Position numbers and translations under genes: made by a program. 64,000 nt of DNA from the human T2T-CHM13v2.0 reference genome, Homo sapiens. Numbering within the stretch: the first letter of the stretch is position 1; every line of letters begins with the position of its first letter. The notes below the pieces were generated by a model. It did not search any database, was not told where the DNA came from, and saw only the letters and a program-made list of their open reading frames with translations. This document shows positions 28,564 to 36,200 of this stretch, in pieces. Where the stretch lies: the NCBI RefSeq assembly GCF_009914755.1, contig NC_060931.1; one strand, 5' to 3'.

Positions 28564-29928
28564 ATAGCTACCCCTGCTGGCTTTTGGTGTCCATTTGCAT
28601 GAAGTGTCTTTTTCCACCCCTTTACTTTAAGTTTACATGAGTCCTTAAGTGTCAGGTGAGTCTCCTGAAGGCAGCAGATAGTTAGTTGGTGAGTTCTTAT
28701 CCATTCTGCAGTTCTGTATCTTTTAAGTGCAGCATTTAGGCCATTTACATTCAGTGTTAATATTGAAATGTGAGGTACCATTGCATTCATCGGGCTCTTT
28801 GTTGCCTGTGTACTTCTTTGTTTGTTTTTTGCTTTTGTTTTTTAACTTGTATTTTTGTTTTATAGGTCCTGTGTGATTTATGCTTTAAAGAGGTTCTGTT
28901 TTGATGTGTTTCCAGGATTTGTTTCAAGATTTAGAACTCCTTTTACCAGTTCTTGTAGTGGTGGCTTGGTAATGACGAATTCTCTCAGGATTTGTTTGTC
29001 TGAAAATGACTGTATCTTTCCTTCATATATGGTGCTTAGTTTCACTGGATACAAAATTCTTGGCTGATAATTGGTTTGTTGAGGAGCCGGAAGACAGGGC
29101 CCCAATCCCTTCCAGCTTGTAGGTTTTCTGCTGAGAAATCTGCTGTTCATCTGATTGGTTTTCCTTTACAGGTTACCTGGTTCTTCTGTCTCACAGCTCT
29201 TAAGATTCTTTCCTTTGTCTCAACTCTGGATAACCTGATGACAATGTGCTGAGGCAAAGATCTTTTTACAATGAATTTCCCATGTGTTCTTTGTACTTCT
29301 TGTATTTGGATGTCTAGGTCTCTAGATGGCTGCAGAAGTTTTCCTTGATTCTTCCCCCAAATATGTTTTCCAAGCTTTTAGAATTCTCTTCTTCCTCAGG
29401 AACACCAATTATTCTTAGGTTTGGTCATTTAACATAATCCCAGACTTCTTGGAGGCTTTGTTCATATTTTCTTATTCTTTTTTCTTTGTCTTTGTTGAAT
29501 TGGGTTAATTTGAAGACCTTGTCTTTGAGCTCTGATTTTCTTTCTTCTACTTGTTCAATTCTATTGCTGAGACTTTCCAGAGCATTTCACATTTCTAAAA
29601 GTGTGTCCAAAGTTTCCTGAATTTTCAATTATTTTTTCTTTAAGCTATTTCATTGAATATTTCTCCCATTCAATATTGGGGGATTGTGTTGGGAGAGGAG
29701 GGTCTCCCTTTCCCACTTCCGCAAATGGGGCACTCACAGTATTTGGAGTGTCTTCTGGGTCCTGCAGGAGCAGTCTGGTTCCTTCAGAGAGTCTGTGGGT
29801 CCTTTTGGGATTGCTGGTTTTTTCTTGCAGTTGATCTGGAGCTAAAATTCACCATGGAAGCCTCCAGATGCTGCTCTGTCTGAAGCTGCAATCTAGTCCT
29901 GCCACCCAGCCACTATGATCCCCTCCAT
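28564..29928 (-). mobile_element. L1PB 5' portion (deleted 5'UTR/ORF1 start, ORF1 remnant, ORF2 start), 3'-truncated
   Basis: ORF 28464-28790 MNAMVPHISILTLNVNGLN..CCLQETHL is the L1 endonuclease start; close inverted copy of 33262-34645. Confidence 0.92.
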
Positions 29929-30457
29929 CTCTCTGTCTACTTTAGTCAGATAAGCTCAAAGCTAGAACAAAGGACCCATATATGAGCCTACGGATCTGCC
30001 TTCAAACACTTGAGAAGCCCTCCAACTCACCATGAGAACACTGACCCCAATCGGGATCTTTGCTTTGCTCCAACAGCCAGACACTCAGAGAGGTCCTCAG
30101 ACCCAGCAACTAATGGACTTGGTGGGATGGTTGTCCTCAAAGCAGCCAGCATTTTTATCAGGCTGGCGTCTGGTCCTGTATTTTTCTGGGATATTCAGAA
30201 TCTCTTGACATGTATCTTCACTTAATTGTGAATTTAAAAAATTATAGATGGATGTAGATATAGATATAGATATAGACATAGAGATAGATATAGATAGACA
30301 TTTTGGAGAAGAGTCTCTCTTTGAAGACTTCCTCTCAGAGTACAAGTCCGTGGTTACAACCATTTTGTTTCTCAGCAAACATGGGGAAGTTTGCTTTTCT
30401 TCTCTGAGGAAGTTAATATAAATGTTTATTGACAGTGCAGTCATCAAGGAATAAAGT

Positions 30458-30468
30458 TGCTGATTCAT
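30458..30468 (+). promoter_or_regulatory. NF-E2/Nrf2 (MARE/ARE-like) site of the TBXAS1 promoter
   Basis: TGCTGATTCAT is a near match to TGCTGA(G/C)TCAT; TBXAS1 is an established p45 NF-E2/Nrf2 target. Confidence 0.85.
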
Positions 30469-30584
30469 TCCTTTACACTGAAACCCTTTGTTGTGCCCTC
30501 CTCTTCCTTCCTCTTTATAGGGAGACACTCTGAGAAAGAGCACATTGTGGGGGCCCACTCCATGTGATGTTTGCTTGGTTGCCT

Positions 30585-32944: not shown

Positions 32945-33251
32945 GGCTGGGCGCGGTGGCTCATGCCTATAATCCCAGCACTTTGGGAGGCCAAGGCAGA
33001 CAGATCACTTGAGGTCAGAAGTTCGAGACCAGCCTGGCCAACATGGTGAAACTCCATCTCTACTAAAAATACAAAAATTAGCTGGGCATGGCAGCAGGTG
33101 TCTGTAATCCCAGCTACTTGGGAGGCTGAGGCAGGAGAATCGCTTCAACCTGGGAGGCACAGGCTGCAGTGATCTGAGATCATGCCACTTCCCTCCAGCC
33201 TGGGTGACAAAGAAAGACTCTGTTTCAAACAAAACAAAACAAAACAAAACA
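32945..33251 (+). mobile_element. AluS with (CAAAA)n tail
   Basis: Alu consensus. Confidence 0.95.
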
Positions 33252-33261
33252 GAAGGATGGG

Positions 33262-36200
33262 AGGATGGAGGGAATCATGGTGGACAGGAGGCAGGACTAG
33301 ACTGCAGCTCCAGACAAAGCAGCATCTGGAAGCTTCCATGGTGAATTTTAGCTCCAGATCAACTGCAAGAATAAATCAGCAATTCTGAGGGGACCCACAG
33401 ACCCTCTGAAGGAAGCGGATTGCTCCTGTAGGGCCCAGAAGACACCCCAAATACTGTGAGTGCCCCAACTGCGGAAGTGGGAAAGGGAGACCCTCCTCTC
33501 CCAACACACTCCCCCAATTTGAGTGGGAGAAATATTCAATGAAATAGATAGCTTAAAGAAAAAACAATAGAAAATTCAGGAAACTTTGGACACACTTTTA
33601 GAAATGTGAAATGCTCTGGAAAGTCTCAGCAATAGAACAAGTAGAAGAAGGAAATTCAGAGCTCAAAGACAAGGTCTTTGAATTAACTGAATCCAACAAA
33701 GACAAAGAAAAAAAAATAAAAAAATATGAACAAAGCCTCCAAGAAGTCTGGGATTATGTTAAATGACCAAACCTAAGAATAATTGGTGTTCCTGAGGAAG
33801 AAGAGAATTCTAAAAGCTTGCAAAACATATTTGGGGGAATAATCAAGGAAAAGTTCCCCAGTCTAGCTAGAGACCTAGACATCCAAATACAAGAAGCACA
33901 AAGAACACGTGGGAAATTCATCGCAAAAAGATCTTTGCCTAGGCACATTGTCATCAGGTTATCCAGAGTTGAGACAAAGGAAAGAATCTTAAGAGTTGTG
34001 AGACAGAAGAACCAGGTAACCTATAAAGGAAAACCTATCAGATGAACTGAAGATTTCTCAGCTGAAACCCTACAAGCTAGAAGGGATTGGGGCCCTGTCT
34101 TCCAGCTTCTCAAACAAATCAATTATCAGCCAAGAATGTTGTATCCAGTGAAACTAAGCATCATGTATGAAGGAAAGATACAGTCGTTTTCAGACAAACA
34201 AATGCTGACAGAATTGCCATTACTAGGCCACCACTACAAGAACTGGTAAAAGGAGCTCCAAATCTTGAAACAAATCCTGGAAACACATCAAAACAGAACC
34301 TCTTTAAAGCATAAATCACACAGGACCCATAAAACAAAAATACGAGCTAAAAAGCAAAAGCAAAAAACAACAACAACAAAAAAAACCAAAGTACAGAGGC
34401 AACAAAGAGCCCAATGAATGCAATGGTACCTCACATTTCAATACTAACACTGAATGTAAATGGCCTAAATGCTCCACTTAAAAGATACAGAACTGCAGAA
34501 TGGATAAGAACTCACCAACCAACTATCTGCTGCCTTCAGGAGACTCACCTAACACATAAGGACTCACATAAACTTAAAGGGGTAGAAAAAGGCATTTCAT
34601 GCAAATGGACACCAAAAGCGAGTAGAGCAACGGTAGCTATTCTCATATCAGACAAAACAAATCGTAAAGCAACAGCAGTTAAAAGAGACAAAGAGGGGCC
34701 GGGCGTGGTGGCTCATGCCTGTAATCTCAGCACTTTGGATCACAAGGTCAGGAGTTCGTGACCAGTGTGGCCAACACAGTGAAACCCCGTCTCTACTAAA
34801 AATACAAAAAAAAAAAAAAAAAAAAAAATTAGAGGGGTGTGGTGGTAGGTGCCTGTAGTCCCAGCTACTTGGGAGGCTGAGGCAGGCGAATCACTTAAAT
34901 CTGGGAGGTGGAGGTTGCAGTGAGCTGAGATTGCACCACTGCACTCTAGCCTGTGTGACACAGCAAGACTCTTTCTCAAAAAAATAAAAAAAAGAGAGAG
35001 ACAAAGAGGGACATTATAGAATGGTAAAAGGCCTTGTCCAACAGTAAAATATCACAGTCTTAAACATATATGCACCTAAAACTGGAGCTTCCAAATTTAC
35101 AAAACAATTAAAATAGGCCTAAGAAATGTGGTAGACAGCAACACAATAATAGTGGCAGATTTCAATATTCCACCGACAGCACCAGACAGGTTAGCAAGAC
35201 AGAAAGTCAGCAAAGAAACAATGGATTTAAACTATACCTTGGAACAAATGGACCTAACAGATATATACAGAACATTTCATCCAATAACCGCAGAATACAC
35301 ATTCTATTCAACATCATATGGAACTTTCTCCAAGATTGACCATATGATAGGCCATAAAACAAGCCTCTATAAATTTAAGAAAATTGAAATTGTATCAAGC
35401 ACTCTCTCAGACCACAACAGAATAAAACTGGAAATCATCTCCAAAAGGAACTTTCAAAACCATGCAAACACATGGAAATTGTTAAATAACCTGCTTCTGA
35501 ATGAGCATTGGGTAAAAAACAAAATCAAGATGGAAATTAAAAAATTCTTCTAACTGAATGACAATAATGACAAAACCTATCAAAACCTCTGGGATATAGC
35601 TAAGGCAGTGCTAAGAGGAAAGTTCATAGCCCTAAACACCTACATCAAAAAGTCTGAAAGAGCACAAACGGACAATCTAAGGTCACACCTCAAGGAACTA
35701 GAGAAATAGAAACAAACTGAACCCAAACCCAGTAGAAGAAAGGAAATAACCAAGATCAGAGCAGAACTAAATGAAATTGAAACACATACACACACACAAA
35801 ATAAAAGATAAATTAAACAAAAAACTGGTTCTTTGAAAAGATAAATAAAATTGATAGACCATTAGCAAGATTAACCAAGAAAGGAAGAGAGAAAACCCAA
35901 ATAACGTCACTGAGAAATGCAACAGGAGGTATTACAACTGACACCACTAAAATACAAAAGATCATTCAAGGCTACTATGAACACCTTTACGCACATAAAC
36001 TAAAAAACCTAGTTGAGATGGATAAATTCCTGGAAAAATACAATCCTCCTAGCTTAAATCAGGAAGCATTAGATACCCTGAACAGACCAATACAAGCAGT
36101 GAGATTGAAATGGTAATTAAAAAATTACCAACAAAAAAAAGTCCAGGACCATAAGGATTCACAGCAGAATTTACCAGACATTCAAAGAAGAATTGGTACC

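What the first reader, a model, noticed from the sequence alone, without database searches (positions are those of the whole stretch)
28564..34645. TBXAS1 promoter and exon 1 bracketed by ~1.37-kb inverted L1PB arms sharing the same internal deletion
Seen in sequence: 28564-29928 (-) is a close inverted copy of ~33262-34645 (+). Both jump from the 5'UTR into mid-ORF1 at the same junction (cccaacacaatcccccaatattgaatgggagaaatattcaatg at ~29670 versus cccaacacactcccccaatttgagtgggagaaatattcaatg at ~33520). The left copy keeps the 5' end but has no 3' end or poly(A), the opposite of normal 5' truncation by retrotransposition. Inference: it arose by local inverted duplication or gene conversion. The 3.3-kb spacer holding the promoter and exon 1 is then a substrate for inversion by recombination.
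Basis: partly seen in the sequence, partly recalled or inferred. Interest (0 to 1): 0.7.

Follow-up and report, generated by a model that had tools for sequence, protein, structure and literature searches.

The report
Ancient inverted L1 copy flanking TBXAS1
The first coding exon of the human thromboxane synthase gene lies between two inverted, 91%-identical pieces of one dead LINE-1 element, likely made by a local DNA-copying accident some 30-40 million years ago and probably too diverged to flip the exon except very rarely.

Summary
Window 28564-29933(-) and 33261-34635(+) are 91% identical. Both lack ~1.37 kb that 23 of 23 comparator copies retain. Each arm's junction sequence was found nowhere else in the genome at up to 3 mismatches. 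The arms are sisters in a tree of 30 (100/99) and share 18 derived non-CpG substitutions; the 8 rare ones classifiable in ORF1 are all amino-acid-changing, one a stop. So the left arm was copied from its already dead neighbour, or homogenised with it. The copy is old: K2P 7.2%, longest perfect run 100 bp, no significant patchiness. The best reading is a fixed, DNA-templated proximal inverted duplication, a class common in human structural-variant data. A 58-bp second local copy from the same L1 supports this. The 5' limit at the L1 start and a weak 11/13 target duplication leave RNA-templated internal priming open. The inversion idea is weak: identity is below usual NAHR needs, and a 44-sample T2T inversion table has no entry here. 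In transcripts from the upstream promoter the arms are predicted to pair as a ~1.3-kb duplex around the ATG exon; this is untested.

The parts
28564..29933 (-). Left arm: inverted copy of the first 1.37 kb of the neighbouring L1 (255-bp 5'UTR stub, rest of ORF1, first ~170 bp of ORF2); no 3' end, no poly(A)
33261..34635 (+). Right arm: 5' part of the donor L1
33261..39110 (+). Donor: near full-length dead L1 (L1PB1-like, label recalled) with the internal deletion, broken ORF1/ORF2, two inserted Alus (~34697-35000, ~36350-36662) and a poly(A)
33517..33524 (+). Filler at the ~1.37-kb deletion junction, right arm; not a GT-AG junction
29668..29676 (-). The same junction filler in the left arm
28558..28570 (+). 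Possible target-site duplication, outer copy; its last 5-7 nt overlap the L1 end (possible microhomology)
   Evidence: 11/13 match, P about 0.035-0.05
29952..29964 (+). Possible target-site duplication, inner copy
30557..30772 (+). TBXAS1 exon 1 (ATG at 30684; acceptor at 30605 used by upstream-promoter transcripts), 624 bp from the left arm
   Evidence: hub annotation
32945..33250 (+). Alu whose (CAAAA)n tail abuts the 5' limit of the duplicated segment
39377..39434 (+). 58-bp direct copy of donor L1 37166-37223 (56/58) sharing a rare variant; likely a second local templated insertion

Best explanation
The two arms descend from one L1 sequence at this locus, and the left arm was likely made by DNA-templated copying of the neighbour's first 1.37 kb into a site 3.3 kb away, in inverted orientation, about 30-40 million years ago (inferred date). 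Order of events: (1) a full-length L1 inserted in TBXAS1 intron 1; (2) it decayed neutrally and lost ~1.37 kb with a filler junction (present in both arms, so earlier than the copy); (3) a break or stalled fork upstream of exon 1 likely primed on 5-7 nt of microhomology in early ORF2, copied back to the L1 start or Alu tail, and rejoined with ~10-18 nt of filler and a possible short target duplication (inferred); (4) the arms then diverged independently to 7%. Today the structure is probably inert as an inversion substrate. Its most plausible live effect is a predicted long RNA duplex around the ATG exon in transcripts from the upstream promoter (untested).
For: Sister pair 100/99, the only starred branch of 27 in a 30-row star-like tree; stem 0.015, tips 0.04/0.03. 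Shared derived non-CpG substitutions: 13 in the ORF part (11 rare) vs max 7 (rare max 4) in 231 other pairs; 5 in the 5'UTR (3 rare) vs max 4 (rare max 3) in 378 pairs. 8 of 8 classifiable rare shared ORF1 changes are non-synonymous, one nonsense, as expected for decay at the locus and not for a master element. Junction unique. Divergence even along the arm (chi2 p=0.41); shared vs private positions KS p=0.38. Geometry close to the common class: 54% of sequenced 'inversions' were inverted duplications, nearly all <1 kb inserted within 5 kb, 'not typically associated with retrotransposition' (PMC4617611 passages). A second local copy (58 bp) shares a variant seen as an exact 35-mer at 3 of 66 genome hits, 2 of them in this window.
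Against: The 5' limit lies within ~3-8 nt of the element's start, which a random DNA switch does not predict; the abutting Alu tail is only a post hoc reason. The arm (1.37 kb) is larger than the typical <1 kb. The 5'UTR excess alone is not decisive (rare 3 vs max 3). 8 of 11 rare shared sites fall in the middle third and none in the last 185 bp, and the 100-bp perfect run has permutation P=0.026: both hint at conversion tracts. Comparators are only the top-scored hits (40 of 3863, 1158 and 4923 candidates). No other primate genome was available, and the absolute date rests on recalled rates.
Confidence: 0.65

Rival explanations
1. RNA-templated insertion in cis: a transcript from the dead donor's own 5'UTR promoter was reverse-transcribed by internal priming at a staggered break 3.3 kb away, giving a 5'-intact, 3'-truncated, tailless copy.
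For: The 5' limit equals the L1 start. No poly(A). Possible 13-nt target duplication with 5-7 nt overlap at the 3' end. These match the internal-priming and tailless features described in PMC5402677 and PMC5322556 (passages).
Against: The target duplication is only P about 0.04. Retrotransposed copies normally land genome-wide, so insertion 3.3 kb from the source needs an undemonstrated cis route. The priming site is not A-rich, unlike the cases in PMC5322556. The second local copy (39377-39434) is an internal piece with no link to the L1 start.
Confidence: 0.16
2. Two independent L1PB insertions landed inverted 3.3 kb apart, and gene conversion later copied the deletion and the variants from one to the other until ~30-40 Mya.
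For: Explains the boundary at the shared 5' end. Mild clustering of shared sites and one 100-bp perfect run.
Against: Needs a second 5'-intact copy next door, loss of its 4.5-kb 3' part (none found), and co-conversion of a 1.37-kb deletion. Shared/private ratios are alike in the 5'UTR (5 vs 12/11) and ORF part (13 vs 35/30). Heterogeneity tests are not significant.
Confidence: 0.13
3. A staggered-break inversion flipped the spacer and duplicated the L1 5' end at both breakpoints.
For: It would give the same arm geometry.
Against: It requires exon 1 to have been antisense to the rest of TBXAS1 beforehand. Exon 1 is in gene orientation with intact splice sites, and the gene is conserved in mammals (recalled). 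The possible target duplication joins both flanks of the left copy into one site.
Confidence: 0.03
4. A deleted non-autonomous L1 master retrotransposed twice by chance.
For: It would explain the shared deletion and shared 5' end.
Against: The junction is found at no other locus. Shared changes look neutral. A copy with the same 5' leader (L032/L062) shares none of the 11 rare variants.
Confidence: 0.03

Closest known systems
Proximal inverted duplications ('Inverted Dup', Sudmant et al. 2015, PMC4617611)
   Same: Short segment copied in inverted orientation within 5 kb of its source, with the spacer not inverted
   Different: Fixed and ancient, not polymorphic; 1.37 kb rather than <1 kb; the template is an L1 5' end; brackets a promoter and first coding exon
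Internal-priming / tailless L1 insertions (described in PMC5402677 and PMC5322556; Srikanta 2009 not readable)
   Same: 5'-intact, 3'-truncated, no poly(A), possible target duplication and 3' microhomology
   Different: The source is the adjacent dead copy, the priming site is not A-rich, and the target duplication is only marginally significant
Retrotransposon recombination-mediated inversion (RRMI, Lee et al. 2008, PMC2603318)
   Same: Inverted L1 pair flanking an exon
   Different: No inversion seen. L1-mediated cases there involve L1PA subfamilies younger than ~20 My with high identity. TBXAS1 is not mentioned in its main text
Spliced integrated L1s (SpIREs; recalled, not read)
   Same: 5'UTR-to-ORF1 internal deletion
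   Different: The junction is not GT-AG, carries a filler, and occurs at one locus only

Membership tests
LINE-1 | ORF1p and ORF2p (EN, RT) domains | tested here: met
   PF02994 and PF17490 in the arms; PF03372 and PF00078 in the donor (6 of 8 frames hit)
L1PB1 subfamily | Best match to the subfamily consensus | not testable with these tools
Proximal inverted duplication | Inverted copy within 5 kb of the source | tested here: met
   3.3-kb spacer
Proximal inverted duplication | Copy derives from the local source | tested here: met
Proximal inverted duplication | Duplicated stretch usually <1 kb | tested here: not met
   1.37 kb; the paper gives this as typical ('nearly all'), not as a definition
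Proximal inverted duplication | Empty-site allele without the copy | not testable with these tools
   No other primate or human haplotype available
Internal-priming insertion | 5' intact, 3' truncated, no poly(A) | tested here: met
Internal-priming insertion | Flanking target-site duplication | tested here: inconclusive
   11/13 match, P 0.035-0.05 against random window pairs
Internal-priming insertion | RNA intermediate | not testable with these tools
   No intron or editing mark available to test
SpIRE (spliced L1) | Deletion bounded by GT-AG | tested here: not met
   Intact copies mostly continue CTGG after the 5' break and end GTGAA before the 3' break; 8-9 nt filler present
RRMI / NAHR inversion | Inverted allele exists | tested here: inconclusive
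   None in Table S1 of PMC10150506 (44 samples; chr7 rows jump from 98.69 to 144.95 Mb); rare alleles and ape tables not seen
RRMI / NAHR inversion | Perfect-identity tract of 300-500 bp (meiotic MEPS) | tested here: not met
   Longest is 100 bp; the same review notes events on <50 bp tracts at alpha-globin repeats 5 kb apart

The most novel reading that the evidence does not exclude
A dead, internally deleted L1 re-inserted its own 5' transcript 3.3 kb away by RNA-templated repair in cis. The resulting 1.3-kb inverted repeat now folds TBXAS1 upstream-promoter pre-mRNA into a duplex that loops out the ATG exon (editing, skipping or circularisation), and on rare occasions it inverts promoter plus exon 1 into a copy-neutral null allele invisible to exome sequencing.
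Probability: 0.12. Interest if true: 0.65.

Novelty: new member of a known kind. Interest (0 to 1): 0.3.

Why it matters
It is a clean, datable fossil of a common structural-variant mechanism beside a disease gene's start codon (TBXAS1 loss causes recessive Ghosal hematodiaphyseal dysplasia; recalled). It gives two cheap tests. One is a copy-neutral ~3.3-4.7 kb inversion in patients with a single known TBXAS1 allele. The other is ADAR editing or exon skipping in upstream-promoter transcripts. If cis RNA templating were shown, it would be a new route for L1 copying. As it stands there is no evidence of function or of an inversion.

Tried and rejected
Shared deletion as a subfamily feature: rejected. 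Spliced L1: rejected. Lost 3' part of the left copy elsewhere in the window: none. Ongoing gene conversion: rejected by 7% divergence. The flanks of the left copy look like one interrupted L2 element and the flanks of the donor like one interrupted MIR, by recall only; tests found no homologue spanning the site, so this is not used as evidence. The donor's own target duplication is a low-complexity (CAAAA)n match (22/24) and is inconclusive. Alu ages could not be ordered against the duplication (pairwise 15-20%). Literature, search listings only: TBXAS1+inversion+inverted repeats 0 papers; TBXAS1+promoter+LINE-1 4 listed, none on this by title or abstract; Ghosal+TBXAS1+inversion 2; TBXAS1+inversion+structural variant 3; circTBXAS1/promoter/exon 1/intron 1 terms 3. 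None of these listings points to this repeat. Not held and so not read: Lee 1996 promoter paper, Khan 2006, Srikanta 2009. The ape inversion tables of PMC12058530 were too large to read and may bear on the inversion claim.

Full report
Observation. The arms are real: 91.0% identity over 1374 columns; 93 substitutions in 1357 aligned sites, 12 indels, K2P 7.2%. Pfam confirms L1 ORF1 domains in both arms, and endonuclease and RT domains in the right element, which runs on to a poly(A) near 39110. The left copy stops at 28564, early in ORF2, and no further matching L1 sequence lies in the window apart from a 58-bp piece. The L1PB1 label is recalled, not tested.

The deletion. Both arms join 5'UTR position ~255 to mid-ORF1 through an 8-9 nt filler. 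All 23 other loci that cover both sides have 1109-1424 bp there. The break is not GT-AG, so it is not a spliced L1. Junction patterns with up to 3 mismatches found only their own arm in the genome; a more diverged or indel-bearing third copy could be missed.

Are the arms closer than chance? The right arm is the left arm's best non-self hit (92%, 1574 bits; next 90%, 1482; 40 of 4923 candidates scored). Against 22 comparators (ORF part, hits of 1000 nt or more; 6 of 28 loci dropped as shorter), the arms share 13 derived non-CpG substitutions, 11 rare; 231 other pairs share at most 7, rare at most 4. Non-CpG distance is 6.1% between the arms versus a mean of 9.3-9.7% (minimum 7.7%) to others. 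In the 5'UTR (28 comparators) the arms share 5, 3 rare, versus maxima of 4 and 3, so that part alone is not decisive. With 28 comparators (4 of 32 loci dropped), including the ORF1 of a copy that has the same 5' leader, no copy carries the rare set. The arms form the only starred clade (100/99) in a star-like tree (bootstrap not fully converged). All 8 classifiable rare shared ORF1 changes alter the residue, one to a stop (a ninth fell in a majority stop codon and two lie outside ORF1). Private changes in other copies run 582:204 and common variants 22:14. The shared history was therefore neutral decay at this locus.

Age. The arms have been separate for about 76% (65-86%) of the time since insertion. 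With recalled calibrations (L1PB1 roughly 40-58 My old; human-macaque neutral divergence about 6.5%) the split falls near 30-40 Mya. The prediction is that apes and probably Old World monkeys have both arms. Divergence is even along the arm (p=0.41). One 100-bp perfect run (P=0.026) and the clustering of 8 of 11 rare shared sites in the middle third (KS p=0.38) leave room for small old conversion tracts.

Mechanism. Sudmant 2015 (passages) found that 54% of sequenced inversion calls were inverted duplications, nearly all under 1 kb and within 5 kb of the source, not typically tied to retrotransposition. This locus fits apart from size. A second fragment (39377-39434) is 56/58 identical to donor 37166-37223 and shares a variant that the family mostly lacks: exact 35-mer matches are 3 of 66 hits, two of them here, although two unlinked copies score slightly higher over the whole fragment. 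This suggests the donor served as a local template more than once. Against a pure DNA route, the left copy begins within a few bases of the L1 start. It may also carry a 13-nt target duplication overlapping its 3' end (11/13, P 0.035-0.05), as described for internal priming (PMC5402677 and PMC5322556 passages). I put DNA templating at 0.65, cis RNA templating at 0.16 and conversion at 0.13. A staggered-break inversion would need exon 1 to have been antisense to its gene and is rejected.

Consequences. Inversion: meiotic NAHR is said to need 300-500 bp of near-perfect identity, though events on under 50 bp occur at alpha-globin repeats 5 kb apart (PMC2583991 passages). L1-mediated human-chimp inversions involve young L1PA subfamilies (PMC2603318 passages). 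The longest perfect tract here is 100 bp. Table S1 of PMC10150506 (44 samples; I saw the first 30 of 61 chr7 places) has no row between 98.69 and 144.95 Mb, and no coordinate starting 14114 on chr7 occurs in its three supplements. An inversion would remove the ATG exon from every transcript (inference from the annotation), so at most rare alleles are expected. RNA: transcripts from the upstream promoter traverse both arms and are predicted to form a duplex of 1294 pairs (-2234 kcal/mol) versus 254 pairs (-411) for a bracketing inverted Alu pair. Editing, skipping or circularisation of exon 30605-30772 is possible but untested. Promoter: a review (PMC9573598 passages) places maximal activity in the first 285 bp and repressive elements at -365 to -665. 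The left arm starts 624 bp upstream of the annotated exon start, so the core promoter lies in the spacer. The arms are CpG-depleted (4 and 8 CpG), which argues against a live L1 promoter.

Verdict. Real, locally derived, ancient, and not found described in the five TBXAS1 searches run (subscription papers not covered). It is a new member of a known class with no shown function. Interest 0.3.

Noticed in passing
window 39377-39434: 58-bp direct copy of donor L1 ORF2 (37166-37223), 270 bp past the poly(A), sharing a rare variant; likely a second local templated insertion.
   Followed up: partly
L003-L030 ORF1, column at window 33568-33570: About half of the related L1 copies carry an in-frame TAA at this ORF1 codon while others have TCA. 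This may mark a sub-lineage with a truncated ORF1, or a mutable A-rich site.
   Followed up: no
L031-L060 5' ends: Several recurring 5' leaders precede the common L1 start among these copies; the arms' leader occurs in at least two other loci. This suggests multiple source elements.
   Followed up: partly
window 32945-33250 and 34697-35000: Two direct Alus closely bracket the duplicated segment in the donor: one abuts its 5' limit and the other lies ~60 bp past its 3' limit.
   Followed up: no
window 40848-41300: Composite Alu with a duplicated right monomer (41021-41131 vs 41149-41253).
   Followed up: no
L057 and L060: L057 has a 5'UTR tandem duplication, and L060 has a shorter 5'UTR-to-ORF1 interval (1109 bp) with a small deletion just past the same 5'UTR position.
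   Followed up: no
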